A DNA stretch of 64,000 nt from Octopus vulgaris (Eukaryota), in the NCBI GenBank assembly GCA_951406725.2, contig OX597833.1:21018001-21082000 (forward strand), written 5' to 3'. Within the stretch, counting starts at the first letter, position 1. Every line of letters starts with the position of its first letter. The position numbers were made by a program, and so were the translations under genes. The notes below the pieces were generated by a model, which had not been told where the DNA came from, ran no database searches, and saw nothing but the letters and a program-made list of their open reading frames with translations. This document shows positions 11,527 through 63,951 of the stretch, piece by piece.

Positions 11527-12578
11527 TCATCATCATCATCATCGTTTAACGTCCGTTTTCCGTGCTAGCACGGGTTGGATGGTTCGACCGGGGTCTGGGG
11601 AGCCAGGGGCTGCCCCAGGCTCCAGTCTGATCTGGCAGTGTTTCTACAGCTGGATGCCCTTCCTAACGCCAACCACTCCGCGAGTGTAGTGGGTGCTTTT
11701 TACGTGCCACCTGCACAGGTGCCAGAGGGTTCTGGCATCGGCCACGATCAGTTGGTGCTTTTTTTTTTTTTTTTTTTTTGTGCTACCGGCGCAGAAGCCA
11801 GTCAAGGCGGTGCTGGCATCGGTCACGTTCGGATGGTGCTTTTTATGTGCCACCGGCACAGAAGCCATTCGAGGCGGGGTTGGCATCGGTCACGTTCGGA
11901 TGGTGCTTTTTATGTGCCACCGGCACAGAAGCCAGTGGAGGCTGCACTGGCAACGGCCACGTTCGGATGGTGCTTTTAATGTGTCACCGGCACAGGTATC
12001 ACAACTACTGTTTCCATTGATATTTGGTTCGATATTCATGTGCCACCGGCACAGAAGCCATTCGAGGCGGGGTTGGCATAGGTCACGTTCGGATGGTGCT
12101 TTTTATGTGCCACCGGCACAGAAGCCAGTGGAGGCTGCACTGGCAACGGCCACGTTCGGATGGTGCTTTTTATGTGTCACCGGCACAGGTATCACAACTA
12201 CTGTTTCCATTGATATTTGGCTCGATGTTCAGGTGCCACCGGCACAGAAGCCATTCGAGGTGGGGTAGGCATCGGTCACGTTCGGATGGTGCTTTTTATG
12301 TGCCACCGGCACAGAAGCCAGTGGAGGCTGCACTGGCAACGGCCACGTTCGGATGGTGCTTTTTATGTGTCACCGGCACAGGTATCACAACTACTGTTTC
12401 CATTGATATTTGGTTCGATGTTCATGTGCCACCGGCACAGGAGCCATTCGAGGCGGGGTTGGCTTCGGTCACGTTCAGATGGAGCTTTTTATGTGCTACC
12501 GGCACAGAAGCCAGTGGAGGCTGCACTGGCGACAGCCACGATCAGATGGTGCTTTCTATGTGTCACCGGCACAGGTAT
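11527..12578 (-). mobile_element. RTE-tail-related repeat with an internal 193-bp higher-order tandem array
   Basis: About 4 copies of a 193-bp unit built from three ~65-bp GTGCCACCGGCACAG subunits. Confidence 0.85.
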
Positions 12579-12584
12579 CTAGAA

Positions 12585-13521: not shown

Positions 13522-13665
13522 ATAGGGAGAATTCACAAAACAAAACAAAAGACGAAGACAGGTGGTGTAGACAACAAACAGATGTATTAGTATAACGCTT
13601 GGGAAGTGAAAAAGCCTTTAAGGTTTCGAGCCTATGCTCTTCCACAGAAAGGAGCACAGAAAGAA
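13522..13665 (-). mobile_element. Penelope pLTR remnant with degenerate HHR
   Basis: Same family as 46097-46262; minus strand TTT-CTGTGGA-AGAGCATAGGCTC-GAAA-CCTT-AAA. Confidence 0.6.
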
Positions 13666-14247
13666 ATTGTATAAAGGATTGTGGGTAAGGCCAGAACAAT
13701 GTGAAGTAAATGCAAGGCAAATCACAAGTAAACAAATATATGAATTAATGTAGACTTACCATGCATTTAATATTTCGCATTGTTCTGGCCTTACCCATGA
13801 TCCTTTATACAATATATTCTACACAATGTTTCATAGTAATTATTCCATATATATATTAAGGTGATTCCCACTGAGCATTCTCAACTTCTCTCCTAAATGT
13901 GAGTAGCCCTGTAGCCGCTCTACAAGAAGAACCTGTCTACCAACCCCTTCTCTCAAGCTTTAACCCCTCATCTACTAGCATAGAGGTGCCTGCCTCCCCC
14001 ACCTCAGGTTTTGTGGTCTTGTGCCAGGGGCACAAAAACTGCTCAGCAAATGCTGTAAATAGTAGGCATTTGAAAGGACATTCAGTCATAGAAACCATAC
14101 CAAAAGAGACACAAGTGTACAAAGGAGCCCTTAAACCCATCAGATCCTGTCGAACCTTATCATCCATGTCAGCATGGAACATGGACATTAGATGATGACA
14201 ATGATGATGATGCTATATAAGTGTGTGCATCTATATATATATGTATA

Positions 14248-17218: not shown

Positions 17219-17225
<7 letters not shown>

Positions 17226-17581
17226 GAAAGAATTATCGCTATGGACTCCGAGTGGGCAGTCATCTAAGAGTTTTTGTTCATCTTGATGCTGACATAAATT
17301 CCTTGTTTCTCCTGATGAGAAGGCAGCATAATGCACCCCTTATTCCTTCGAAATTAGGAATATGCAGCCTTCGAAACATATGTCGAGAATAAAGGAATTT
17401 TGTTAAATCGTCGTTCAACTCCATTCTTTCATTTATTTGTATTAAAAAACACATAAATTTCCACACAAAAGCACGTGATCTCTGTCCTTGGCATGTAGCT
17501 TCAACCGTGTTTTTCTGATGTGAATTTGCTACCAGGTATCGGTTAACCGAATTATCCATACTAGGATAATTCATTCAACTA

Positions 17582-17584
<3 letters not shown>
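17219..17584 (+). mobile_element. ORF-less ~365-bp unit between (TA)n tracts carrying a hammerhead ribozyme (solo Penelope pLTR or retrozyme monomer)
   Basis: Flanked by (TA)n on both sides; contains a canonical HHR. Confidence 0.65.
17292..17403 (+). ncRNA. type I hammerhead ribozyme, canonical core, extended stem I
   Basis: Stem I AAATTCCTT-GT-TTCTC / GAGAA-TA-AAGGAATTT; CTGATGA at 17312-17318; stem II GAAGGC/GCCTTC plus GCATA/TATGC; GAAA at 17373-17376; palindromic ACATATGT stem III; GUC site, cleavage after 17384. Confidence 0.88.
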
Positions 17585-18460: not shown

Positions 18461-20657
18461 CATCATCATCATCATCATCATCATCGTTTAACGTCCGCTT
18501 TCCGCGCTAGCACGGGTTGGACGGTTTGACCGGGTCTGGGAAGCCAGGGGCCGCACCAGGCTCCAGTCTGAATCTGGCAGAGTTTCTACGGCTGGATGCC
18601 CTTCCTAACGCCAACCACTCCGTGAGTGGATTGGGTGCTTTTTACGTGCCACCTGCACAGGGGCCGGAGGGTCCGGCATCGTCACGATCGGTTCGAGCAT
18701 TTTAACGTGTCAGCGGCACGGGGGCAACGAGGTCCGGGGTACTTTGGGGATCCAGGGTACTTTGGGGATCCGGGGTACTTAGAATGAGTAGGGGGTATGT
18801 GGAATTGCTGCAGAAAGCAGCCCGGGTCTTTGTAGTCACAGCATTTATCGTCACTGAGTAACGTAATTAGGTAGAGGAAAGAAATACAGATATTCTAGAG
18901 TTGAGTTGGGGAGGGGAGGTCCAGTTGAGGCGGGTAATATAGGAGAGCAACCAGTGGGGAAGGTTGGGGTAAGGAGGAACGATGGCAGGAAGGGTTGGTG
19001 TAGGTTCCTAAGAAATAAAGACATTCGTTATCGTCACTGAGTAACGTTATTAGGTAGAGGAAAGAATACAGATATTCTAGAGTTGAGTTGGGGAGGGGGG
19101 TCCAGTTGAGGTGGGTAATATAGGGGAGCAACCAGTGGGGAAGGTTGGGGTAAGGAGGAACGATGGCAGGAAGGGTTGGTGTAGGTTCCTAAGAAATAAA
19201 AACGTAGGATATTACGAGGCGGGAGGGTGCTAAAGGGGATAGTCGGAATGAGGCAGTGTCAGGAGGAAGCGTAAGATCGGTGGGCAGTTGATGAGCTATG
19301 GCGCTAGCAGCTTGTCTTTTCACAGTGAAAGCATATGAGGAGAAGGGGTAGTGGGGGGAGGAGGAGGGAGTAGGGCGTACCCGGTGTAGATGAGTAAGGC
19401 GTATCCGGTGTAGATGGTGAGGACAGGGTATACTGGTATTGGTGGTGGGGGGTGAGGAACAGTGTTCACCGGTATTGGTGGTGTTGGCGGTGAGAACAGT
19501 GTTCACCGGTATTGGTGGTGGGGGTGAGAACAGTGTTCATCGGTATTGGTGGTGGGGGTGGGGGGCGGGCGCACCGCCAATGGCTGAAAGATGGGAAGAG
19601 ATGGGATTACGGCTTGAGGTAGCCTAGCCTAAGGTTAAATTTTGTAGAGAGAGAGATAGAAAGATAAATCAAGTTATGGCGAAGGCTTGAAAGTAGCCTA
19701 AAAAGGTTAAATTTTCGTAACAATGTATGAATAAACGTAGTAACAACGAATAAAATAGTAAGATAAATTTTTAAGAACTTGCTGCGGACATCGATCGGGA
19801 GTTGAAATTGAAGAAGAAAGTAAGTTGAATTGGGAATTTAAATTGTAGAATCGTAATGGTAAGAGGAGGAAAAGACCGCCAATGGCTGAAAGATGGGAAG
19901 AGATGGGATTACGGCTTGAGGTAGCCTAGCCTAAGGTTAAATTTTGTAGAGAGAGAGATAGAAAGATAAATCAAGTTATGGCGAAGGCTTGAAAGTAGCC
20001 TAAAAGGTTAAATTTTCGTAACAATGTATGAATAAACGTAGTAACAACGAATAAAATAGTAAGATAAATTTTTAAGAACTTGCTGTGGACATCGATCGGG
20101 AGTTGAAATTGAAGAAGAAAGTAAGTTGAATTGGGAATTTAAATTGTAGAATCGTAATGGTAAGAGGAGGAAAAAGACCGCCAATGGCTGAAAGATGGGA
20201 AGAGATGGGATTACGGCTTGAGGTAGCCTAGCCTAAGGTTAAATTTTGTAGAGAGAGAGATAGAAAGATAAATCAAGTTATGGCGAAGGCTTGAAAGTAG
20301 CCTAAAAAGGTTAAATTTTCGTAACAATGTATGAATAAACGTAGTAACAACGAATAAAATAGTAAGATAAATTTTTAAGAACTTGCTGCGGACATCGATC
20401 GGGAGTTGAAATTGAAGAAGAAAGTAAGTTGAATTGGGAATTTAAATTGTAGAATCGTAATGGTAAGAGGAGGAAAAGACCGCCAATGGCTGAAAGATGG
20501 GAAGAGATGGGATTACGGCTTGAGGTAGCCTAGCCTAAGGTTAAATTTTGTAGAGAGAGAGATAGAAAGATAAATCAAGTTATGGCGAAGGCTTGAAAGT
20601 AGCCTAAAAAGGTTAAATTTTCGTAACAATGTATGAATAAACGTAGTAACAACGAAT
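18461..20657 (-). mobile_element. composite non-autonomous element: RTE-type 3' tail plus tandem-repeat-rich 5' region
   Basis: (GAT)n RTE tail at 18461-18720, 2 x ~182-bp repeat at 18845-19200 and 3.6 x 302-bp repeat at 19573-20657; bounded by TA tracts. Confidence 0.55.
19573..20657. repeat. 302-bp tandem repeat, 3.6 near-identical copies
   Basis: Units start with ACCGCCAATGGCTGAAAG at 19573, 19875, 20177 and 20479. Confidence 0.95.
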
Positions 20658-21206
20658 ATATATATATATATACACCCACACACGTACATACATGTGTATG
20701 TCTGTACATGTATGCATGTGATTGCATCTCCTTATTGCTTGCTAGCTGTAAACAAGTGTCACTGTCACACAAGCATTCATGTTATACATTCCTGACCATT
20801 GGGGAAATATTACCTTGTTTAGAGACCTGTGAGGGTTTAGCAACAGGAAGGGCAATCTGGCTGTGGAAAATTCACTCTGAGAAACTCCGTCCAACCCATA
20901 CAAGCATGAAAAAATGGACATTAAAACAACGACGATAATGATAATGAAGATGATGATGATGATGACGAAGATGATGACAGCAAAAGAGTGAATGTTTTGC
21001 ATAACCATGCGATATAACTTAACTGCTTTGTGTGTAATTATGTAATACAACTTATATCAAATCTGTTTCTGTAGTTGATGTAAATTATGTAAATAAACAT
21101 AGGATGAGTTGTATAAATGACCTAACACAAATTTGTCTAATTTTGTCTTTGACAACTACTTGTTTATTTCAGACACCACCTGCAACAAATATACATATAT
21201 ACACAG

Positions 21207-23684: not shown

Positions 23685-25157
23685 TATTCGTTTAACATCC
23701 GCTTTCCATGCTAGCATGGGTTGGACAGTTCAACTGGGGTCTGTGAAGCCTGAAGGCTGCACCAGGCCAGTCAGATCTGGCAGTGTTTCTACAGCTGGAT
23801 GCCCTTCCTAACGCCAACCACTCCGAGAGTGTAGTGGGTGATTTTATGTGCCACCGACACAGGTGCCAGACGAGGCTGGTGAACGGCCATGCTTGGATGG
23901 TGTTTTTTACGTGCCACCAGCACGTAGGCCAGTCAATGCGGTACTGGCTATGGCCACGTTCGGATGGTTTTCGTATGTGCCACCACAAAACTACAAATTC
24001 CATTAATGTTCATCGAGTTTGCTTTTGATTTTGTCCATTTTCACTTGCCTCAACAGGTCTTCACAAGTAGAGTTATGTGTCCCAAGAAGGAAGGTATGCA
24101 TAGGTGCACTGACTATGTTCCAGGTAGGGGCCATGGGTTATGGCCTCACTTGTCCAGCCGGGTCTTCTCACGCACAGCATACTTCCAAAGGTCTCGGTCT
24201 CTGGTCATTTCCTCGGTGAGACCTAAAGAGCGAAGGTCGTTCTTCACCACCTCGTCCCAGGTTTTCCTGGGTCTGCCTCTTCCACAGGTTCCCTCAACCG
24301 CCAGGGTGTGGCACTTTTTCACACAACTACCTTCATCCATTCTTACTACGTGTCCATACCAGCGTAGACGCCTCTCTTGCACACCACATCTGATGCTTCT
24401 TAGGTCCAACTTTTCTCTCAAGGCACTTACACTCTGTCTGGTATGAACACTGACATTACACATCCAACGGAGCATACTGGCTTCATTTCTTGCAAGCTTA
24501 CGCATATCCTCAGCAGTCACGGCCCTTGTTTCACTGCCATGTAGCATGGCTGTTCGCACACATGCGTCATACAGTCTGCCTTTTACGCTGAGCGAGAGGC
24601 CTTTTGTCACCAGCAGGGGTAAGAGCTCTCTGAACTTTGCCCAGGCTATTCTTACTCTAGCAGTTACACTTTCGGCACACCCACCCTCGCTACTGACTTG
24701 GTCACCTAGGTAACAGAAACTATCAACTATTTTAAGTTTTTCTCCCTGGAATGTGGCGGAAGATGGTCTCTGCGCACTTTCAGTGTTTATTGCACCAGAG
24801 CATCTGCCACATACAAAAACTATTTTCCTAGTTAGCCTTCCTTTGACATTGCTGCACCTCTTATGTGTCCATAGCTTACACTTCGTGCATCTTATAGAGT
24901 TCCTACCTACGCCTTTTCTACAGATCGAGCAGGGCCATCTACCTGATGGCGTTTGAAATTTGTCTACCTTCCTACTTATTAGGACTTTGGTTTTAGCTAG
25001 ATTGACTCTAAGGCCCTTCGATTCTAATCCTTGCTTCCACACCTGAAACTTCTCCTCGAGTTCCGATAGTGATTCAGCAATTAGAGCAAGGTCATCAGCA
25101 TAGAGGAGCTCCCAGGGGCATCCTGTCTTGAATTCCTCCGTTATTGCCTGGAGGACT

Positions 25158-25160
<3 letters not shown>
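23685..25160 (-). mobile_element. RTE-clade LINE, 5'-truncated, open RT C-terminal half plus 3' UTR
   Basis: Uninterrupted frame 24146-25160: GCPWELLYADDLAL, DSFCYLGD, RRLRWYGHVVRM, GRGRPRKTW; 3' UTR ends in the tail shared with the short RTE-tail repeats. Confidence 0.92.
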
Positions 25161-25188
<28 letters not shown>

Positions 25189-25811
25189 CACGTATACACG
25201 TATGTATGTATGTGTGTGTATATGTCTTTGTGCCTGTGTTTGTTGTCCCATCACTGCTTGACAACTGGTGTTAGGGTGTTTATGTCCCCATAACTTAGCA
25301 ATTTTGCAAAAAGACCGATAGAATAGTCTTAAAAAATAAGTACTGGGGTTGACTTATTTGACTAAAACCCCCTCAAGGCTGTGCTCCAGCATGGCTACTG
25401 TCAGATGACTGAAATGAGTAAAAGAATAAAACAGAATAAACTGCATCAAAAAATTGTCAGAATATTCTGTGGATTGCAGAAGTATAACTAATTCATTGCA
25501 CATAAAGTTTAACAACAAAATCTTATAATGAACTCCCAAGGGTCATGTGGACCCCAGTTGAGAACTACTGATATAGGTTATAAATTAGTTCAGATAGTTG
25601 GTCTTTCCCCATTGTTGTTCAACAGTATTGCAGACACAGTAACCTAACCCCTCTGCTGTGCTTGAGCTGTTTCCAGAAGCAAATGCCTCAACTCAAACAC
25701 TCTTATCATTTCTCCACTCATGCATATACCATGAAGGAAAGACAAGTCAATACATCTACAGCATCAATGAAGACACAGGAGTTGCCAAATATTGGTTAAG
25801 TATAACCACAT

Positions 25812-30979: not shown

Positions 30980-33700
30980 ACAGGAAGGTAAGTAACCCTG
31001 CTTTTTTTTTTTTTTTGGTCTCAACCCTTTCGAGCCGTCATGGCGATTGTCAGGGTGGGCTGCAGAAATGTTCGTGGCCTGAGGTCACCCTTGAAGCAAG
31101 GTCGCTTGCTCAATGACCTCAGGTCGCTAGGTTTCGATGTGATAGCAACCAGTGAGACCAGAATTTCCGACACACGTGATCTTGCACCCACTTTAGGCGA
31201 TTATGAGATCTACGCATCTCTTATTCGGCCCAGAATGGGACGCGAGGTGGAAGTGCTGTTTAGGAAAGGCCTGGATCTCGAAGTCCGTACGATCTTCCTG
31301 GACCCGAAGGGTAAGTTGGTGGTCCTGGAAATTAACGCCAGAGAAGGTAGTGCCTTTAGACTAGTCGCTGTTTACGCCCTCACGGAGGCAGGGCAACCAG
31401 GTTTCTTCAGACGTTTGGAAGTTTTTCCATGGGACGTCACGCTCTTTAATGTTAGTGGGTGACTGGAACCTTATTTTGGACGCATGCCTAAATAGGGCGG
31501 GACTAGTTGATAGGAGAAGAGGAAGTAAAATCCTCACAAACCTGCTCAACCGCTTTCAGTTGACTGACTGGCTTTCCTGAATGCGCCAATATGAACATGG
31601 GCGAACTGCATCGAGTCTTCCAGGTCGCATCTAGATAGAATATTTTGTAGGCCAGTAGATAAAAGTAGTATAAGGTGTCCACGTTTCAAAGACGTCGGTT
31701 ACACGGACCATAAATTTGTGATCTGTACGGTCCACATAAATAGGATCCATGGACAGGGACCCTGATACTGGAAGCTGAACGCGTCCTTCCCAGCGCACTA
31801 AGCTTTCAGAGACCGGATTAGCAAGTTAGTCCATCGAGTGTTGGCGGGCACAATCAACAGCCGTTGTTGAATAGCCTTGGAAAGGGCTATTAGAGTAGAG
31901 GCAGTAGGTTTTAGTAAGGAAATAGTGTTAGAGGAATCTAGGTAGCCTAGTTAGGAAGTTTGAAGAGGTACTTAGGAAGTCACAGCGACCGACGTGGTGG
32001 TGGCGAGATTATCTTTTGATCAATTCTTCAATGTCAAGCACGAACGTTTCGTTGTCAGAGCTAGGGCGCGTGCACTGAGGCGGAAGGTGGATGTTTTGAG
32101 GGGAATACCGCGTGATCTAGGATGCGGAAGGTTCGTGTCGACTTACACGAACGACGTCACCGTAATAGTGTCGGACATCTCGGAAATCGAGTTGGTCGGC
32201 ACGGCTCTAAGGGAGTACGAAGCTGTGACAGGAGCAAATATCAACCAGGAGAAGTCGGTGGGTCAGCAGCTCGGCACCTGGAGAAGCAGGACAAGGCCAA
32301 CCGACAGCCTGATAGGCCGCAGGACGGAAGGACTGATTAAATTGCTCGGGGTCTGGTTTGGTCTAAACCTTCACGAGAACAAGAACTGAAAGGGTGGGGT
32401 GCGAGCAGGGCAGCCAATCTCGCCCAGAAATGGGCAGAGAGGAAGCTGTCCCTGAATGGTCATCTACTATCGCATAACCGTCATCGCTTGCCCCACTTCG
32501 TGCCTGATAAAGTTGGATCGCTTGTTCTTCCACTCCCTATAGAAGGGACGTGTTCCGCTCATCAGACGGTCCATCTGCTGTCAACAGCCGCTGAGCGGAG
32601 GATTGGGTATGCAGTGGCTAATGATGCGCAGATACGCGCTGAGGTTGCAATATCTCCAGCGTTTCCTTAACGGTGGTCGCCGTTCATCAAAAGGGACTTC
32701 CCGCAGCTTGTTTCAATAATGGAACCACAGTCCTGGGTCAAGCGCAGACCAAGAAAGGGTGCTTAGCACCAGGACTCGGAGTGTTGGCAAGCGCTCACTG
32801 CCTTCTGTTAGTCGGGCAACGCAGTCGGTAGAAGTTCCACCATGGAGTCCTATAGAGGATTAGTGGAGGGAGAGAGCGATGACGTACTCGAGGAAACTCT
32901 GGGCGTCGACAGGGATCAACTAATTTGCCTTTTCCGGAGGACTGTTGGGCCAGAGCCTGTGGATAACTTCAAGAAATCCCTGGCCTGGAAGTACAACCGG
33001 GGAGCTCTGCTGATTCGAGACAAGTTCTACAGACACAGAAGTGTTGTTAGACGGACCTGTCCGAGGTGTGCGCAAGGTGATGAAACCGTCCGGCATGCAT
33101 TCGTCCAGTGTCCGTGCATTACTGACCTGTGGAGCTTTGTCGAACAGCTGTTGTCACGTGTAGGACGGATCCGGTTATCAGCCGAGTCCATTGTGAGGAA
33201 CACCCCTCCGCCTTATTTTGGCCGGGAAGGGAAAGGCAGTTTTCTTCTGCAGTGTGATGGACGAGGTTGAAAGGACTGAAGACAGACACTTTTCTCTTCT
33301 CATTGACTTTTACAAGTTCCACTTGAAAAGGAAAGTGAGGGTTGAGAGAGAAGTACTGCCGCCACCCCATTAAGTTTGTTGAAAGTTGGGTGAATGTTGC
33401 GAAAATGGCTCGTGTGAATGGGCCTACTCTGAATTTTCGTCTGTAAGCCGGAGCAGTTGAGGGGAAAAGAGATGTCTACCTGGCGTGCCCTTGGCGGTCG
33501 GGGTGACCATGATGTGCTGGGTACCCTGGTTGGCTCTGGGTGGAACTGCCCACTATTGGGGAATTTTGTTGTTTTGATTTTTTATGTTAACTGTTTTAGT
33601 TTTTATTGTTTACACGTTTTTCTGTTTTAAACCCCACTTGTCCCTTGTTTTGTATTGCCTCTAATTGTATTTGTGTTTGGCCCTTGTGGCCAATAAAGAA
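30980..33700 (+). mobile_element. L1/Tx1-clade LINE ORF2 remnant, internally deleted
   Basis: APE domain GCRNVRGL...ATSETR; SHLDR/TDH and WKLN motifs; YADD-equivalent TYTND at ~32140; KLLGVWFG; C-terminal CPRCAQGDETVRHAFVQC; AATAAA at ~33692. Confidence 0.88.
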
Positions 33701-35002: not shown

Positions 35003-36435
<1,433 letters not shown>

Positions 36436-39169: not shown

Positions 39170-40430
39170 CATTGGACAGTGAACTGCCAGAATCGTTGGC
39201 ACGCCGAACAAACTGCTTAGCGACGTTTCGTCCGTCTTTATGTTCAGAGTTAAAGTTTTGCCGAGGTCGATTTTGCATTTCACCCTTTCCGAGGTCCATA
39301 AAATAAATACCAGTTGAGTACTGGGGTCGATGTGATTTACTAACCCGCCCTCCTCCCATAAAATTTTAGGCTTTGTGTCTATAGTGGAAACGATTATGGC
39401 TTCATTTTGAGTCAACAAGATGGCAAAATCGTTAGCACGCCGCATAAAATGCTTAGCGACATTTCATCCGCCTATTTGTTCTGAGTTCAAAATTTGCCGA
39501 GGTCGACTTTGCCTTTCATCCTTTTGGGGTCGATAAAATAAATACCAATTAAATACTGGCGTCGATGTAATTGACTAACCCCTCCCCTCAAAAACTGCTG
39601 GTCTTGTGCCAAAATTTGAAAGCATTATTACAAATTCTCATAGGGCGGCGAGCTGGCGGAAACGTTAGCACACCGGACGAAATGCTTAGCGGTATTTCGT
39701 CTGCCGCTACGTTCTGAGTTCAAATTCCGCTGAGGCCGACTTTGCCTTTCATCCTTTCGGAGTCGTTTAAATAAGTACCAGTTACGCACTTGGGTCGATG
39801 TAATCGACTTAATCCGTTTGTCTGTCCTTGTTTGTCCCCTCTGTGTTTAGCCCCTTGTGGACAATAAAGAAATAGGTATTTCGTCTGCCGTTACGTTCGG
39901 AGTTCAAATTCCGTCGAGGTCGACTTTGCCTTTCATCTTTTCGGGGTCGATAAATTAGGTACCAGTTGCGCACTTGGGTCGATGTAATTGACTTAATCTC
40001 TTTGTCTGTCCTTGTTTGTCCCCTCTGTGTTTAGCCCCTTGTGGGTAGTAAAGAAATAGGTATTTCGTCTGCCGTTACGTTCTGAGTTCAAATTCCGTCG
40101 AGGTCGACTTTGCCTTTCATCTTTTCGGGGTCGATAAATTAGGTACCAGTTGCGCACTTGGGTCGATGTAATCGACTTAATCTCTTTGTCTGTCCTTGTT
40201 TATCCCCTCTGTGTTTAGCCCCTTGCGGACAATAAAGAAATAAGAATCGTTAGTACGCCCGAAAACATGCTTAGCGCCATTACTTTCAGCTTCACGTTTT
40301 GAGTTCAAATTCCGCCGAAGTTGACTACTTTTCATGCCTTCAAAATCGATATAATAAGTATCAGTTGAACACTGGGATCGATGTAATCGACTTAACCCTC
40401 CCCTAAAATTTCAGGCTTTGTGCCTATAGT
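39170..40430 (+). mobile_element. cluster of family B SINEs including a trimer (39643-40245) nested in another copy
   Basis: Head-less ~190-bp bodies repeated through AAGAAATAGGTATTTCGTC junctions. Confidence 0.85.
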
Positions 40431-43885: not shown

Positions 43886-43891
<6 letters not shown>

Positions 43892-45960
43892 AAAAATGAA
43901 AAAACTACAGAAGGCTTAAATGTTAAAAAATATATATTTGCGTCAATATGTCTGAAGAATATTAAAAAATTTTTTGAAGAATATTAAAAAATTTTTTTTT
44001 CCTCTTATAATGACATAATTTAGAAGAAATTCTCCTAAACCCTTCTGAAACCCTTCCTTAAACATATCGATAGCCATATCAGAGATGACTTGGATATATT
44101 AAACCACCTTCCAAAAAAAGCCAAGGAAGAAACAATCCTGGTTTCATTTGATGTCAGTTAACTTATATACCAGTATACCTCATAATTATGGACTAGAGGC
44201 AATACAGTTCTGGCTGGACCAATTTCCGGAAGAAATACCAAAAGGATCAGTAAAGAATTCATTACTAAATCAATTGAATTCATCCTACACAATAACCACT
44301 TCATGTTTGACAATACATTTTACCGTCAAAAATCCGGAATTGCTATGGGTACAAGGGCAGCACCAGTCATTGCGAACCTAACAATGGGCTACATGGAAAT
44401 AATCATTTACCAGGAATCTTTATCAATCTTTGGAAACCCCATTTCTCAATACATAAAAGAGAATTGGAAACGATTCTTAGACGATTGTTTTATACTCTGG
44501 AATGAAAACACAGATAAACTCCTAAAATTTAAAAACCTATTGAACAGCATAAACCCAAATATACAGTTCACAATGGAATACAACCAAAAGGAGCTCCCGT
44601 TCTTGGATATACTAATTTAAAAAATTAACCTTAAAATAGAAACAGACATTTTTTACAAAGCCACAGACGCCAAACAATACCTTCTTTTTAATTCATGCCA
44701 CCCAAGACACACTAAAACAAACATCCCCTTCAACCTTGCACAGACGCCAAACAATACCTTCTTTTTAATTCATGCCACCCAAGACACACTAAAACAAACA
44801 TCCCCTTCAACCTTGCAAGAAGGATATGCACAATAGTGTCAGAACAAAATACCAGGAACTTTAGACTGCAAGAACTCAAAAACACCCTAATTGACAGACA
44901 TTACCCAGCTCAACTCATAGAGGATGGGATCAGACGTGCAACAGAAATCAACATAGAAACTTTAAGAAAAGTTCAACACAACAACACACCTTCCCCGAAA
45001 ATACTACCTTACATATCTACATACAACCCCAGAAACAAAGAAGCCTTCACCATCATCACCCAGAATTTACCAATACTTCATAAGGACCCCAAATTAAAGG
45101 AAATTCTAAACATACACCAAATCATTAAAAGCTATAAACAAACTAAATCACTTAAAAAGATTCTCACAAAGGCAAAATTGTCTTCTGATACTACGGATGC
45201 AAAAGTAAAAAAATGTGGTAGATCGAACTGTGCAACATGTCCAAACCTGCTAGAAGGATCAGAATTCCTCTTTAAAGAGGGACAGAAATTCAAGATCAAA
45301 TCTAACTTTACTTTTGCCTCTGAAAACATAATTTATGTCATAAAATGCTCGGGCTGCCACCAAGACTACGTGGGATCCACGGGACTATCACTCAGACGTA
45401 GATGCACACTGCATCGACAACAGATTGCATTCCCAGAATACAGAATGATACCTTTTAGTGAGCACATTGAGAAATGCGCAAAGCAACTACTACCACAATT
45501 TTTAATCTTTCCATTTTACCAATGTGCTATCGGATCATCAACACAAATTAGACTAAACAAGGAAACATTCTTCATTGAAAAGTACAAGCCCAGACTTAAC
45601 CATCCCAACATACTGATACAGAGAAATTCACACCAAGGGAAAGGAAAATATTTTTAAGCGATTATCTCCCTTACACCGGAAGAAATCACTCATTACCTCC
45701 CCTTATTTAGAACTCTTTTGAACATAAACATAACGATAACCCTGTTCAACATAAACATAACGTCGCAAGAAATTTGAAAAGCTAAACGCGAAACCGGTCT
45801 TTCTTCTAAATTATGTCATTATAAGAGGAAAAAAAAAATTTTTAATATTCTTCAAAAAATTTTTTAATATTCTTCAGACATATTGACGCAAATATATATT
45901 TTTTAACATTTAAGCCTTCTGTAGTTTTTTCACTTTTTACTATTTTCTATATATTCAACC
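43886..45960 (+). mobile_element. Penelope-like element, 5'-truncated (RT plus GIY-YIG pseudogene), with an inverted pLTR copy at the 5' end
   Basis: LVSFD..NLYTSIP, GIAMGTRAAP, WKRFLDDCF, LPFLD, IYVIKCSGCHQDYVGST; frameshifts and a 77-bp internal duplication at ~44662-44817; 43886-44029 is the reverse complement of 45800-~45945. Confidence 0.93.
45767..45805 (+). ncRNA. minimal hammerhead ribozyme with U3-A8 covariant core
   Basis: AAGAAA-(T)-TTGAAAA-GC-TAAAC-GC-GAAA-CCGG-TC-TTTCTT; palindromic loop III; predicted cleavage after 45799. Confidence 0.65.
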
Positions 45961-45993
45961 ACGTGCTTTCACAAACCAACTTTCTTATCTCTC

Positions 45994-46262
<269 letters not shown>

Positions 46263-48169: not shown

Positions 48170-48960
48170 AAGGCGGCGAGCTGGCAGAACCGTTAGCACG
48201 CCGGGCGAAATGCGTAACGGTATTTCGTCCGTCTTTACGTTCTGAGTTCAAATTCCGCCGAGGTCGACTTTGCCTTTCATCCTTTCGGGGTCGATTAAAT
48301 AAGTACCATTTACGCACTGGGGTCAATGCAATCGACTTAATCTCTTTGTCCGTCCTTGTTTGTCCCCTTTGTGTAGCCCCTTGTGGGCAGTAAATAAATA
48401 GATATTTCGCCCATCTCTACGTTCTGAGTTCAAATTCCGCCGAGGTCGACTTTGCCTTTCATCTTTTCGAGGTCGATTAAATAAGTACCAGTTACGCACT
48501 GGGGTCGATATAATCGACTTAATCCGTTTGTCTGTCCTTATTTGTCCTCTCTGTGTTTAGCCCCTTGTGGGTAGTAAAGAAATGGGTAGTAAAGAAATAG
48601 GTATTTCGTCTACCGTTACGTTCTGAGTTCAAATTCCGCCGAGGTCGACTTTGCTTTCGATCCTTTCGGGGTCGATAAATTAAGTACATGTTACGCACTG
48701 GGGTCGATGTCTGTCCTTGTTTGTCCCCTCTATGTTTAGCCCCTTGTGGGCAATAAAGAAATAAGGATCGTTGGCAAGCCGAACAAAATGCTTAGCGCCA
48801 TTTCGTCTGTCTTTATGTTCTGAGTTCAAATTCCGTCGAGGTCAACCTTTATCTTTCATACTTTCGGGGTCGATAAAATAAGTAACAGTTGAATAATGAG
48901 GTCAACGATATCGACTTAACCTTTCCCTAGAATTGCTGGCCTTGTGGTAAAATTTGAAGC
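48170..48960 (+). mobile_element. family B SINE trimer plus an adjacent copy
   Basis: One head followed by three ~190-bp bodies. Confidence 0.85.
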
Positions 48961-49309: not shown

Positions 49310-50591
49310 TCAGGTCATTCCATAACTTCCGTCCGAATTTTGAATAAAGAAAACAAGTAATCAAATGTTATATTTAATTGAAATTTAATAATCAATGTAC
49401 TTTCCCTGATTATCTATGACTTCCTTCCAGCTAGTTACAAGCTTTTTAATCCCATCAATGTAAAACTCTTTTGGTTTCAAAGCAAAGAGCTCTGAAATGT
49501 CAGTTTCGACCTCCTCCTGGCTTGCGAAAGTTATGTCCCCCAAATGATTCTGTAAACTATGAAACAAATGGTAATCTGAAGGAGCAAGGTCGGGAGAATA
49601 AGGTGGATGAGGAATTTTTTCCCAACCAAGCTCTTCGATCTTCTGTGATGTGATCTTTGTAGTGTGGGTTCGTGCATTGTCCTGATGAAACACCACTCCT
49701 TTTCGATTCACTAATGTGGATCTTTTTTCTCCAAAGCTTGGTTCAAACGCTCTAATTGCTGACAGTAGACTTGAGCATTGATTGTTGCATTATGTGGTAA
49801 CAATTCAAAGTGAATTACTCCTTTGCAATTCCACCAGATAGAGAGAAGAACCTTTTCCCCATGAAGTACCCTTTTCGGCTGTGGTTGAGCCTTTTCCCTT
49901 TTACCAAGCCACTGTTTATGACATTTATCATTTCGATAGAAGATTCATTTTTCATCACCAGTCACAAGTCTATCCAGAAAGGGTGAAATGAGTTCGCGAG
50001 AATGGAGAGAAGAACAGATTTCAACTCGGGATTTGCGGTTGATTTCGAACACTTCAAGAGGCACCCATTTTTCAAGTTTAGGAACCTTCCAACTTGTTGA
50101 AGATGACGATGAACAGTTGTATGGTTTGAACTAAGCTTTATTGCCAATTCTTCAACTGATAATGCAGGATTTTCTTCAAGTAATGCCTCAAGGAGTTTAT
50201 CATCAAACTCAACTGGACATCCTATTCGATTTTCAAGGCTGAAATCTCCACTTCTGAATTTTGCAAGCCACCTTCTGCAAGTTCTTTCATTCAAGCATCC
50301 TTTCCTATAAACTGAGTGTTTGTTTCGAGTTGCTTCGGCTGCAGAGTTTCCTTTTTTGTACTCATAAGGCATTATGTGTCTCAAATGCTCTTTGGATACT
50401 TTCATGTTAGAAAGGGTTTTAATCAAAGAAAATTTAATTCTATTATTGTGTAAAATAATATTTAATTAGTTTAAATGTACACAAATGCATAAAAATAATT
50501 TTTAATTCCATTAGACATTCTAAAATACTATTAAATTTAATCCAATTTTTAAAAAAAGGTAAAATCGGACAGAACTTATGGGACGACCTGA
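49310..50591 (-). mobile_element. full-length mariner (DD34D) transposon with a frameshifted transposase
   Basis: TIRs TCAGGTCATTCCATAACTTCCGTCCGA / TCGGACAGAACTTATGGGACGACCTGA, TA TSD; HTH region, VTGDEK, HQDNARTH, HPPYSPDLAPSDYHLF. Confidence 0.95.
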
Positions 50592-57549: not shown

Positions 57550-57961
57550 TTTTCCTATTTCTGTATTGCCCACAAGGGACTAAACACAGAGGGGATAAAC
57601 AAGGACAGAGAGATTAAGTCGATTACATCGACCCCAGTGCGTAACTGGTACTTAATTTATCGACCCCGAAAGGATGAAAGGCAAAGTCGACCTCGGCGGA
57701 ATTTGAACTCAGAACGCAAAGACAGACGAAATACCTATTTCTTTACTACCCACAAGGGGCTAAACACAGAGAGGACAAACAAGGATAGACAAACGGATTA
57801 AGTCAATTACATCGACCCCAGTGCGTAACTGGTACTTAATTTATCGACCCCGAAAGGAGGAAAGGCAAAATGGACCTCGGCGGAATTTGAACTCAGAGCG
57901 TAGAGACAGACGAAATACCGCTAAGCATTTCACCCGGCATGCTAACGTTTCTGCCAGCTCG
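57550..57961 (-). mobile_element. family B SINE dimer
   Basis: Reverse complement of the family B consensus. Confidence 0.85.
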
Positions 57962-60743: not shown

Positions 60744-60824
<81 letters not shown>

Positions 60825-60831
<7 letters not shown>

Positions 60832-61955
60832 TCTCAGAATGAGATTGAAACATAATCGCTCGATAATATAAATATAGAAGCCATCTTATCATGGCTAACC
60901 ACATTGGGGAGGGGGTGTTACTGTAGCTTTATAGCCCCGAGAGATCTTCGTCTCTAGCTGGCTTTAGACACAATATCAGTGTCCTTGGAGTATTTGCAAA
61001 GGGAGGCCATCCCTTCCTCGCAAGCCTGAGTGATACGCTCGAACTAGTTTCGGGTTTGTTGTCCCTCGTCAACGGGCGGTAACAACCAGGTCACGATGAA
61101 AGTGAAGGCCTCTTTGCAAACATATATAAGTTTTTCTAATGGCGTCTGCCACTGATGTCGAAAAACGAACAGTAAGCATAATTAAATCTCAGAATGAGAT
61201 TGAAACAGTAATCGCTCGAAAATGTAAAGTATAGAAGCCATCTTATCATGGCTAACCACATTGGGGAGGGGGTGTTACTGTAGCTTTATAGCCACGAGAG
61301 ATCTTCGTCTCTAGCTGGCTTTAGACACAATATCATGTCCTTGGAGTATTTGCAAAGGGAGGCCATCCCTTCCTCGCAAGCCTGAGTGATACGCTCGAAC
61401 TAGTTTCCGGATTGTTGTCCTTCGTCAACGGGCGGTAACCACCAGGTCGCGATGAAAGTGAAGGCCTCTTTGCAAACATATATAAGTTTTTCTAATGGCG
61501 TCTGCCACTGATGTCGAAAAACGAACAGGCGCTATAAAGCTACAGTAACACCCCCTCCCCAATGTGGTTAGCCATGATAAGATGGCTTCTATACTTTACA
61601 TTTTCGAGCGATTACTGTTTCAATCTCATTCTGAGATTTAATTATGCTTACTGTTCGTTTTTCGACATCAGTGGCAGACGCCATTAGAAAAACTTATATA
61701 TGTTTGCAAAGAGGCCTTCACTTTCATCGCGACCTGGTGGTTACCGCCCGTTGACGAGGGACAACAAACCCGAAACTAGTTCGAGCGTATCACTCAGGCT
61801 TGCGAGGAAGGGATGGCCTCCCTTTGCAAATACTCCAAGGACACTGATATTGTGTCTAAAGCCAGCTAGAGACGAAGATCTCTTGGGGCTATAAAGCTAC
61901 AGTAACACCCCCTCCCCAATGTGGTTAGCCATGATAAGATGGCTTCTATACTTTA
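60825..61955. mobile_element. ORF-less ~355-bp unit array (2 direct plus 1.2 inverted copies) with HHR motifs; pLTR/retrozyme-like
   Basis: Copies at 60825-61179 and 61180-61528, inverted tract at 61531-61955; (TA)n on both flanks. Confidence 0.8.
61745..61787 (+). ncRNA. minimal hammerhead ribozyme-like motif (UUGACGA core)
   Basis: CGCCCG-TTGACGA-GGG-ACAACAAA-CCC-GAAA-CTAG-TT-CGAGCG; minus-strand copies at ~61037-61078 and ~61392-61434. Confidence 0.65.
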
Positions 61956-62214
61956 TATATATATATATATACATACGTTAATAAATACATACATATTATG
62001 CTTGACTGCTAAATCTACAGGTTTTTTCATTCTCTCTCTGTTTCTTTCTCTTATTCCTTTCTGTTGAAGAGCGTAGACTCGATACGTAAAAGAGTTTTTC
62101 ATTTTTCATTGTCCTGTGCGTCGAACTAATACACCTGTTTGTTGTTCATACACCTGTTTTCGTCTTTTGTTTTTCTATAAATTTCCTCTCTCTCTCATCC
62201 TCTCTCCCTCCATT

Positions 62215-62296: not shown

Positions 62297-63951
62297 CAGA
62301 AATACCCGACGTTGCTCGCGATTTGTATATATGGTACAAGTTAAGTTGAAACGTGTGATATGGAGAAGTGTACAATTGACGACAAAGCATTTGTGGAGTA
62401 AATGAAGGGCTCGTTCGATTAAGTGACATGTCTTGCGTCTGTTTGGAAGATTCCAGGCCCTAACCTTGTCGTGGAAAAGTGAATGGAGGATATGTGATTC
62501 TTGAACGCACCAAAAAGCTGTCAGTGGATATGATTTCTTTTGCGGCTGTCGGCGCTGCCGCTACAAAGCTGAAAAATCATGAGATATAGGAACTTCATCT
62601 ATGCGATAAATTAAGCCTGAGGGCGCGCTCAACAGTACCACATGAGAGAAATCTACATGAAAGATATGACGTGGTAAGGCGGGGGATTGACAAAGAAGCG
62701 CTTGAAAACAACACAGTCTTGCGATATTTCGGTTTGGAATCAATAGTCGTGGCTCAATGATGCACTGCTTCGCGTAAACAGCATGTGACCATTGTGAGGA
62801 CAACTCAGCTACCAAACGAAAACAATTCTGCATGCAGCATTGGGGTACGCGAGGTCACATTAAGGAAGGATGAAAGTCAAAGTCGACCTCGGCGGAATTT
62901 GAACTCAGAACGTAACGGCAGACGAAATACCGTTAGACATTTCGCCCGGCGTGCTAACGCGTCTGCCAGCTCGCCGCCTTCGATGCATGGAATATTGAAG
63001 TTTCCATTTATCGAGCAACACACACAGTCTCTAACAAGAGTGGTTGGGTCACGTAATGTTGGATTGCTGACGTGGTTGGGGATCAATAATCGTGGCTCAA
63101 CTGTGCACTCCGCGTAAACAGCGTGCGACCACTGTGAGGGTTACTCAGCTCCTGAACGAAAACAATTCTGCATGCAGCATCGGGGTACGCGAGGTCACAT
63201 TAAGGACACGGTCTCTAACAAGAGTGGTTGGGTTACGTAATGTTGGATTGCTGACGTGGTTGGGGATCAATAGTCGTGGCTCAACTGTGCACTCCGCGTA
63301 AACAGCGTGCGACCACTGTGAGGGTTACTCAGCTCCTGAACGAAAACAATTCTGCATGCAGCGACCGGGGACGCATGGTCACATTAAGGACATGGTCTCT
63401 AACTAACGTCGTTGGGTCTTAGACACAATAAATTAGTAGGTTAATGTACATGTGATATTTTAGTTTGTAATCAATAGCTGAAGAATATTTGCATGGACTT
63501 TGTCTATGCTTAGACGGAAGACTTTGATACTGAAGCTAAAAGAAAATAGTTGAATAGTTGCTCAGGATTTAATATATTTTAGCATAATTTTCATAATAAA
63601 CAAAGTGCATTCCAAACGGTTTTTATTCCAACAAATTTCTACCTATGGTACTACGGGTACAGGCAATTATTGCTACCAATTAGACAAGGCAGTTTGAAGT
63701 CTACATCAGTTCTTCCATTTAATACAACCTACATATATTGTTTCAGTAGTTGAATTTGACAGTTTGAACAGAAGCAATGTGTGGACCATGCGAGTAGTCG
63801 TACGTATCCCAGGAAAGAGGGTATTCTGCCCCAAGAGGCCCCATTACTCATTATGTGAAAATTTTCAAGAGTCTAAAACCATCTCTGGAACGTAAGGAAT
63901 GCATGTTCCCAACTTGGAGAAAATCAGTTGCGAACTTCAGAAGTTCTGCGG

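What the first reader, a model, noticed from the sequence alone, without database searches (positions are those of the whole stretch)
60825..61955. Tandem plus inverted 355-bp HHR-bearing array: candidate non-LTR retrozyme
There is no ORF, the copies are highly similar, and each unit carries one minimal HHR with a palindromic CUAG loop suited to dimeric cleavage between adjacent units. The direct-then-inverted layout is the Penelope integration signature, and the array sits in (TA)n. Transcription could release unit-length ~355-nt RNA (potentially circular) and also a long dsRNA hairpin. The U3-G8 core and UU site may lower activity.
Basis: partly seen in the sequence, partly recalled or inferred. 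Interest (0 to 1): 0.72.

Follow-up and report, generated by a model that had tools for sequence, protein, structure and literature searches.

The report
ORF-less Penelope-type hammerhead repeat insertion
This is a real but ordinary kind of animal transposon remnant: three copies of a 357-base ribozyme-bearing repeat, pasted into a TA tract in the direct-plus-inverted pattern typical of Penelope retroelements, with a ribozyme that looks damaged and probably does not release circular RNA here.

Summary
The array is real: two direct units (60823-61177, 61178-61528; 357-nt template unit) joined head-to-head to an inverted 1.2-unit arm (61531-61955), between (TA)n tracts, with no ORF. The hammerhead exceeds chance (0 of 5000 unit shuffles), but it has canonical type I architecture rather than minimal. 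All three copies have U3·G8 and a GUU site; the middle copy also lacks G10.1-C11.1, so only 2 of 3 pass. The anatomy is the published Penelope signature: both ribozyme-sense 3' ends face (TA)n, and a 47-nt tail is on one end only. None of the four ends maps to the cleavage site, so the template was an uncut multimer or a religated circle. Best reading: a non-autonomous, retrozyme-like Penelope derivative inserted in trans and probably inert as a circle source. Read-through RNA would bury the ribozymes in a ~425-bp hairpin. Such elements are described (Cervera 2014, 2020; Arkhipova 2013; Li 2026), and this window holds other hammerhead-bearing remnants in microsatellites. Copy number, expression and the autonomous partner could not be tested. 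A better lead lies nearby: a coding Penelope at 43.9-46.0 kb whose inverted arm begins exactly at its predicted ribozyme cut. Interest 0.3.

The parts
60746..60825 (.). Left (TA)40 target tract; overlaps the end of U1 by 3 nt
60823..61177 (-). Unit U1 (355 nt), 3'-most unit of the left arm in ribozyme sense; 6 private differences, 4 of them in its last ~50 nt
60823..60867 (-). Penelope-type 'tail' (47 nt in the template, seen intact at 61599-61645): present at the left outer end, absent at the right outer end
   Evidence: tail concept PMC8557442, PMC3846280, PMC11167929
61020..61090 (-). Type I hammerhead of U1 (core 61072-61042; U3·G8; predicted cut after 61042)
61178..61528 (-). Unit U2 (351 nt); its 5' end lies 5 nt inside the unit boundary set by the tail end
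61376..61446 (-). Degenerate hammerhead of U2 (core 61428-61398): G10.1 to A at 61421, C11.1 to G at 61408, but an A-U fourth pair in helix II (61411)
61528..61530 (.). Head-to-head junction of the two arms (1-nt overlap plus one mismatch, or 2 untemplated nt)
61531..61645 (+). INVa: 115-nt 5'-truncated unit end including the tail; identical to the 3' part of U2 (0 of 115 differences)
61646..61955 (+). INVb: 310-nt unit from the same unit boundary to the start of the tail
61695..61722 (+). TATA-like box and TCACT initiator-like motif upstream of the ribozyme (also 61101-61128 and 61457-61484 on minus); a pattern match only, chance not assessed
   Evidence: same motif pair described in an Adineta pLTR, PMC3846280 passage
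61733..61803 (+). Type I hammerhead of the inverted arm (core 61751-61781; predicted cut after 61781)
61956..61971 (.). Right (TA)8 target tract

Best explanation
The array is one insertion of a non-autonomous, ORF-less Penelope-like derivative (retrozyme-like unit, 357 nt), made in trans by the RT/GIY-YIG protein of an autonomous PLE. SHOWN: the layout, the ends, the absence of an ORF and the ribozyme motif. INFERRED: (1) the endonuclease cut both strands of a (TA)n tract. (2) Each DNA end primed reverse transcription on ribozyme-sense RNA at one of two internal start sites 47 nt apart (+221 and +174 from the predicted cut). (3) The two cDNAs (about 2.0 and 1.2 units) were joined at their 5'-truncated ends, giving the head-to-head inversion with a one-sided tail. 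(4) The template already held tandem units and was continuous across the cleavage site in all three units: an uncut multimer or a religated circle. (5) The template ribozyme was already impaired (U3·G8, GUU, helix I mismatch), U2 lost helix II closure, and this locus is probably not a source of unit-length circles. If transcribed through, it would mainly give a ~425-bp dsRNA hairpin.
For: Both ribozyme-sense 3' ends abut (TA)n, the 5' ends meet head-to-head, and the outer ends differ by 47 nt. This matches the published PLE structure of two direct plus one inverted pLTR with a 30-40-bp tail at one end (PMC3846280; PMC8557442). It also fits the in vitro PLE, which cuts and extends both strands of AT-rich DNA, starts at two internal sites bounding the tail, and does not need ribozyme cleavage (PMC11167929). 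The same tail-end/unit-start junction occurs in both arms (61174 and 61635), so it was most likely in the template. No end lies at the cut: 5' ends are at -250 and -130. A coding PLE in the window (43890-45990; RT, C-x4-C-xx-C linker, GIY-YIG-like; 63 RT/EN homologues at E<=1e-10) has the same inverted 5' arm between TA-rich microsatellites. pLTR sequences alone can be mobilised in trans (PMC3846280 passage). Retrozyme-like traits: 357 nt, 44% GC, MFE z -3.8 linear and circular in ribozyme sense (0 of 100 shuffles as stable), with the ribozyme at the end of a long stem, and canonical HH9-like architecture.
Against: No second locus of this family is in the window, and no eukaryotic DNA collection was available, so 'non-autonomous family' rests on one insertion. 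The unit has no similarity to the window's coding PLE: the best DNA hit is 22 nt at E 0.74, and tblastn of 63 PLE proteins gives best E 0.098. The partner is therefore unidentified. The tail is 47 nt, longer than the usual 30-40. The antisense strand also folds somewhat better than shuffles (z -2.3). The 76-nt ribozyme segments fold no better than shuffles (z -0.03 to 0.86). The cis dimer fold is only 4.5 kcal/mol above the MFE of a U2-U1 transcript, so some cleavage is not excluded. I found no paper measuring U3·G8; its damage is inferred from the C3-G8 pair and its U3-A8 covariation (PMC3088659 passage). Arkhipova 2013 explains head-to-head inversions by self-priming on an antisense template instead.
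Confidence: 0.6

Rival explanations
1. The unit is simply the pLTR of an autonomous coding PLE, and the array is a dead-on-arrival insertion of pLTR-only RNAs or truncated copies joined by template jumps. There is no independent retrozyme family.
For: PLE insertions are typically 5'-truncated partial tandems with an inverted 5' copy. The unit has a TATA/Inr-like pair just upstream of the ribozyme, as in an Adineta pLTR. U2's 5' end falls 5 nt from the unit boundary (about 2-3% by chance, my estimate), which hints at a natural RNA 5' end. Paired HHRs on opposite strands 100-700 bp apart were ascribed to truncated PLEs (PMC4209133).
Against: There is no ORF remnant in any of the three units. The identical junction in both arms argues against random truncation of a long RNA. 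The ribozyme is canonical-type, whereas metazoan PLE pLTRs mostly carry minimal HHRs.
Confidence: 0.25
2. An active non-LTR retrozyme locus: transcription from U2 into U1 is cut twice by a dimeric hammerhead and gives a ~356-nt linear and circular RNA.
For: Two same-strand ribozymes lie 356 nt apart. Helix III is 1 bp with a palindromic tetraloop, like axolotl HHR_Amex1, which works as a dimer. The dimer fold is within 4.5 kcal/mol of the MFE, and the monomer is significantly structured.
Against: U2 lacks the highly conserved G10.1-C11.1 pair. All copies have U3·G8 and GUU. RT read through the cut site in 3 of 3 units. The hairpin sequesters the ribozymes in read-through RNA. Only 1 of 9 predicted Xenopus retrozyme dimers cleaved in vitro (Li 2026).
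Confidence: 0.1
3. One monomer inserted, and later DNA-level duplication and inversion (slippage, template switch or gene conversion) built the array.
For: The arms are about 99% identical. All 5 U2-private changes lie outside the part of U2 that pairs with the long arm (chance about 0.14 by my estimate), which is compatible with conversion.
Against: This does not explain why both outer ends stop at (TA)n 47 nt apart in unit phase, nor the same layout in the unrelated coding PLE nearby.
Confidence: 0.04
4. An assembly or fold-back read artefact.
For: The arms are near-perfect inverted copies next to a long (TA)n. 3 of 12 private differences are 1-nt deletions.
Against: The flanks are not mirrored (local alignment score 16 for left versus reverse-complemented right over 300 nt). 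The arms end at different unit positions and carry distinct substitutions. The window has no N.
Confidence: 0.03

Closest known systems
Metazoan non-LTR retrozymes (Cervera and de la Pena 2020, PMC7229834; Li et al. 2026, bioRxiv 10.64898/2026.07.22.740005)
   Same: ORF-less tandem units in the 150-450-bp range (mussel 350-390), under 50% GC, one type I hammerhead per unit, a self-paired unit with the ribozyme exposed, and a 1-bp helix III with a palindromic tetraloop as in axolotl HHR_Amex1. A PLE origin and PLE mobilisation are already proposed.
   Different: U3·G8 core and GUU site in all copies; no two consecutive intact ribozymes; an inverted arm and one-sided tail, which the sections I read of those two papers do not describe for retrozymes; expression unknown.
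EN+ Penelope-like element insertions (Neptune/Poseidon; Arkhipova 2013 PMC3846280, Craig 2021 PMC8557442, Frangieh 2024 PMC11167929)
   Same: Two direct plus one inverted head-to-head repeat, a tail at one end only, an AT-microsatellite target, a hammerhead upstream of the 3' ends, and a TATA/Inr-like pair.
   Different: No RT-EN ORF or other cargo between the direct repeats; tail of 47 nt rather than 30-40; no clear palindrome at the inverted junction beyond 4 nt.
PLE minimal hammerheads (Cervera and de la Pena 2014, PMC4209133)
   Same: Type I, palindromic 15.2-16.2/loop 3, presumed dimeric and weakly active; opposite-strand pairs 100-700 bp apart are already noted; U3 core variants are known (as U3-A8).
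   Different: Here there is no extra nucleotide between A9 and G10.1, helix II is short (3-4 bp) and helix I is long with a defined internal loop; U3 faces G8, not A8.
Rfam RF02275 Hammerhead_HH9
   Same: Full-length alignment with a shared UUAC/GUA bulge and an A-rich loop 2.
   Different: 26-27 bits, far below the gathering score of 52; U2 is not matched at E<=10.

Membership tests
Non-LTR retrozyme | Short tandem repeat unit of about 150-450 bp | tested here: met
   357-nt unit, 2 direct copies plus 1.2 inverted
Non-LTR retrozyme | No protein-coding ORF | tested here: met
   Longest frame 68 aa; no credible homologue
Non-LTR retrozyme | Type I hammerhead motif in the unit | tested here: met
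   2 of 3 units pass a strict descriptor that allows U3; 0 of 5000 shuffles; HH9 alignment
Non-LTR retrozyme ('active' by Li 2026) | [quoted passage not shown] | tested here: not met
   U2 lacks G10.1-C11.1; no copy has C3. My descriptor, not their rnabob model.
Non-LTR retrozyme | GC below 50% and a highly self-paired monomer with the ribozyme free to fold | tested here: met
   44% GC; z -3.8 linear and circular
Non-LTR retrozyme | Self-cleavage and accumulation of linear and circular monomer RNA | not testable with these tools
   Needs an in vitro assay or RNA data
Non-LTR retrozyme | Multi-locus family in the genome | not testable with these tools
   No other copy in the 64 kb; no match in prokaryotic genomes, phages or plasmids; no animal genome collection available
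Non-LTR retrozyme | Lack of PBS and PPT | not tested
   No specific search made
EN+ Penelope-like element (autonomous) | RT plus GIY-YIG ORF | tested here: not met
   None in the array
PLE-type insertion | Direct pLTRs with an adjacent head-to-head inverted 5' copy | tested here: met
PLE-type insertion | 30-40-bp tail at one end only | tested here: met
   47-nt extension on the left end only; somewhat long
PLE-type insertion | AT-rich or (TA)n target | tested here: met
   (TA)40 and (TA)8
PLE-type insertion | Target-site duplication | tested here: inconclusive
   Hidden by the microsatellite
PLE-type insertion | Unit homologous to the pLTR of a coding PLE | tested here: inconclusive
   Not homologous to the one coding PLE in the window; the rest of the genome is not available
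PLE minimal hammerhead (min-HHR) | Extra nucleotide between 9 and 10.1, long helix II, short helix I | tested here: not met
   Canonical-type architecture; definition from PMC4209133
Rfam Hammerhead_HH9 | Score at or above gathering (52 bits) | tested here: not met
   27.4 and 26.4 bits

The most novel reading that the evidence does not exclude
The array records rolling-circle reverse transcription of a 357-nt retrozyme circle by a Penelope RT primed from both cut strands at two sites 47 nt apart. That would be insertion-level evidence that PLE enzymes mobilise retrozyme circles. The family would also have kept spreading with a U3·G8 core, through trans or protein-assisted cleavage or none. 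Only 12 private differences in about 1130 nt separate the copies, which is compatible with identical units at insertion but equally with an uncut tandem transcript.
Probability: 0.15. Interest if true: 0.55.

Novelty: new member of a known kind. Interest (0 to 1): 0.3.

Why it matters
Modestly. PLE mobilisation of animal retrozymes has been proposed from shared features (Cervera 2020) and argued from co-occurrence and phylogeny (Li 2026). An ORF-less ribozyme tandem with the PLE tail, the inversion and a (TA)n target is anatomical support of a different kind. The window also offers a contrast: this array was copied straight through its damaged ribozyme site, while a neighbouring coding PLE has an arm that starts exactly at its predicted cut. 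Counted genome-wide, such ends would test whether PLE hammerheads cut their templates in vivo, which Frangieh 2024 could not see in RNA-seq. A single locus proves neither point.

Tried and rejected
Rfam at gathering thresholds: 0 hits in the window. At E<=0.5 there were 73 hits, mostly models hitting microsatellites; only 2 were hammerheads, both in the array. Search for relatives: an exact degenerate pattern in prokaryotic genomes gave 0 (1 of 2 scans used); blastn against phages and plasmids gave no match. Viral and metagenome contigs were not available, and no animal genome collection was offered, so copy number and partner stay open. The 68-aa frame across the ribozyme gave no hit in the word-indexed search and 2 hits among the representatives. 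Both were rejected as summed weak matches to repetitive proteins. tblastn of all 63 PLE homologues against the array gave best E 0.098. The 374-aa RT frame at 24146-25270 was considered as a partner and rejected: it looks like a LINE 3' fragment with no GIY-YIG (the RTE-like label is recalled). An alternative ribozyme register (extra nucleotide before helix II) fits worse than the U3 register. My idea that the unit boundary is the transcription start is weakened by the TATA/Inr-like pair lying 50-75 nt inside the unit. The sigma-70 scan is irrelevant here (3 found versus 4.2 expected). No tRNA was found. Cluster names for four proteins could not be obtained. Literature searches for U3·G8 activity and for cephalopod retrozymes or hammerheads found no paper describing this element or variant; most subscription journals are outside the library. 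The Cervera 2020 supplement could not be read, and the Li 2026 supplements were not available; either may list related invertebrate families.

Full report
OBSERVATION. Two direct units run from 60823 to 61528 (TRF period 356), followed by an inverted arm, 61531-61955, that is 99% identical to 60866-61292. It sits between (TA)40 and (TA)8. Read on the ribozyme strand, the left arm is U2 (351 nt) then U1 (355 nt) on minus; the right arm is a 115-nt unit end plus a 310-nt unit on plus. The template unit is 357 nt. Pairwise differences are 11 of 352 (U1/U2), 4 of 310 (U1/INVb), 6 of 305 (U2/INVb), 0 of 115 (U2/INVa) and 4 of 115 (U1/INVa). The longest frame within the array is 68 aa, with no credible homologue. 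The window is repeat-rich animal DNA. Named homologues of its PLE protein are from bivalves. My impression of an octopus host is recalled from its SINE-like repeats and was not tested.

THE RIBOZYME. A strict type I descriptor allowing U3 finds 3 motifs in the 64 kb: U1, INV and an unrelated one at 17312. It finds 0 in 40 shuffled windows and 0 of 5000 shuffled units. Rfam HH9 aligns over its full length to U1 and INV (E 2.7e-4 and 5.5e-4 in a 1.4-kb search; 26-27 bits, gathering 52). The shared features are the UUAC/GUA internal loop, a second helix I segment and an A-rich loop 2. This is canonical type I architecture with a 1-bp helix III and a palindromic tetraloop, like axolotl HHR_Amex1, and not the PLE minimal form. 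All three copies have U3·G8, a GUU site and a C.A mismatch in helix I. U2 has also lost G10.1-C11.1, a pair called highly conserved in PMC4209133. C3 and G8 pair and covary to U3-A8. I found no measurement of U3·G8, so reduced activity is an inference. The 76-nt ribozyme segments fold no better than shuffles. The whole cut-to-cut unit does, in ribozyme sense: z -3.8, 0 of 100 shuffles; antisense z -2.3.

HOW IT GOT THERE. Both ribozyme-sense 3' ends face the (TA)n tracts, at +221 and +174 from the predicted cut. The 5' ends meet head-to-head at -130 and -250. The 47-nt difference is a one-sided tail. This is the published EN+ Penelope structure (PMC3846280; PMC8557442). It fits the in vitro Poseidon enzyme, which cuts and extends both strands of AT-rich DNA, initiates at two internal sites bounding the tail, and does not need ribozyme cleavage (PMC11167929). 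The same tail-end/unit-start junction is in both arms, and RT crossed the cut site in 3 of 3 units. The template was therefore most likely an uncut multimer or a religated circle; the 12 private differences cannot tell these apart. U2's 5' end lies 5 nt from the unit boundary, which I cannot explain. The flanks are not mirrored, which argues against a fold-back artefact.

CONTEXT. At 43890-45990 is a 5'-truncated coding PLE with RT, a C-x4-C-xx-C linker as in Neptune, and a GIY-YIG-like domain (63 homologues at E<=1e-10). It has a 140-nt inverted 5' arm (98.6%) between TA-rich microsatellites. It shares no sequence with the unit, so it shows the machinery but is not an identified partner. Its inverted arm begins at the first base after the predicted cut of its U3-A8 minimal hammerhead, in contrast to the array. 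A relaxed descriptor finds four further hammerhead-like motifs outside the array (17312, 35179, 45774, 62061; shuffled mean 0.02 over 50 windows). Two more copies related to the 62061 motif were found by blastn (13545, 46108) but failed the helix I filter. Hammerhead-bearing remnants in microsatellites are therefore common here.

WOULD IT MAKE A CIRCLE? Only U2 and U1 share a strand. The cis double-hammerhead fold is 4.5 kcal/mol above the MFE of that dimer (monomer folds +6.6 and +13.0), so it is accessible. In that geometry U1's core cuts U2's site and U2's damaged core must cut U1's site (inference), so release of a monomer is unlikely in cis. Read-through RNA of either strand folds into a long hairpin (uninterrupted helices of about 210 bp) that fully pairs the INV or the U1 ribozyme. 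Li 2026 saw cleavage in 1 of 9 predicted dimers. I put circle production from this locus at about 0.1.

COMPARISON AND VERDICT. It works like a PLE-mobilised non-autonomous repeat and resembles non-LTR retrozymes in size, composition, fold and ribozyme type. It fails the 'two consecutive complete ribozymes' criterion and has no ORF, so I file it as an ORF-less PLE-type insertion of a retrozyme-like unit, not as an active retrozyme or an autonomous PLE. The kind is known: retrozymes as PLE derivatives, pLTR-driven insertion in trans, non-autonomous head-to-tail PLEs, opposite-strand HHR pairs. Searches for a cephalopod description found none, apart from 235 Rfam hammerheads counted in giant squid. 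New member of a known kind; interest 0.3.

PAPERS SEEN. Li 2026: parts 1-3 of 5, no supplements. Cervera 2020: parts 2-4 of 6, supplement unreadable. Cervera 2014: parts 1-2 of 4. Frangieh 2024: parts 1-2 of 4. Craig 2021: 12 of 21 passages. Arkhipova 2013: 11 of 11 passages found. Perreault 2011: 3 passages. PMC6962438: 2 passages. Others: search listings only. Hammerhead numbering and the dimer geometry are from established knowledge, partly restated in PMC4209133.

Noticed in passing
window 43890-45990 (+): 5'-truncated coding Penelope-like element (Neptune-type C-x4-C-xx-C linker, GIY-YIG-like), broken by a stop at about 44618 and a 77-bp tandem duplication (44662-44817). Its 140-nt inverted 5' arm (43890-44029 = 45800-45939) begins exactly at the predicted cleavage site of its U3-A8 minimal hammerhead (45774-45799): a single-case hint of in vivo cleavage.
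   Followed up: partly
window 17219-17583 (+), hammerhead 17312-17384: A ~365-bp solo insert between two (TA)n tracts with a canonical-core hammerhead (C3-G8, GUC, long helix II, palindromic helix III; fold z -6.0). It is unrelated to the array and a better candidate for an active ribozyme. It has a 15-20-nt inverted piece at its left end of doubtful significance.
   Followed up: partly
window 62030-62170 (+), 46108-46240 (-), 13545-13666 (-), 35176-35208 (+): A dispersed family of short microsatellite-flanked remnants (75-93% alike) with a minimal-hammerhead-like motif, mostly with U at core position 6. One lies 75 nt to the right of the array.
   Followed up: partly
window 19573-20658 and 18845-19200: A 302-bp x3.6 tandem (99% identical) and a 181-bp x2 tandem in a purine-skewed stretch ending at (TA)n. 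No hammerhead was found by the descriptors; possibly the end of another retroelement.
   Followed up: partly
window 24146-25160 (-), 32812-33270 (+), 49385-50465 (-): Other transposon remains: an RT C-terminus with a PHD-like finger, a zf-RVT fragment, and a mariner-type transposase in pieces (HTH_48, DDE_3).
   Followed up: no
window 39691-40242, 48221-48708, 57554-57919, 63022-63418: Several 182-184-bp tandem repeats of SINE-like elements, and a 193/67-bp tandem at 11773-12579.
   Followed up: no
window 61411: U2 has an A-U fourth pair in helix II where U1 and INV have A.A. If A-U is ancestral, U1 and INV share a derived base, which would favour a heterogeneous tandem template or gene conversion over a single circle. 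One site only.
   Followed up: partly
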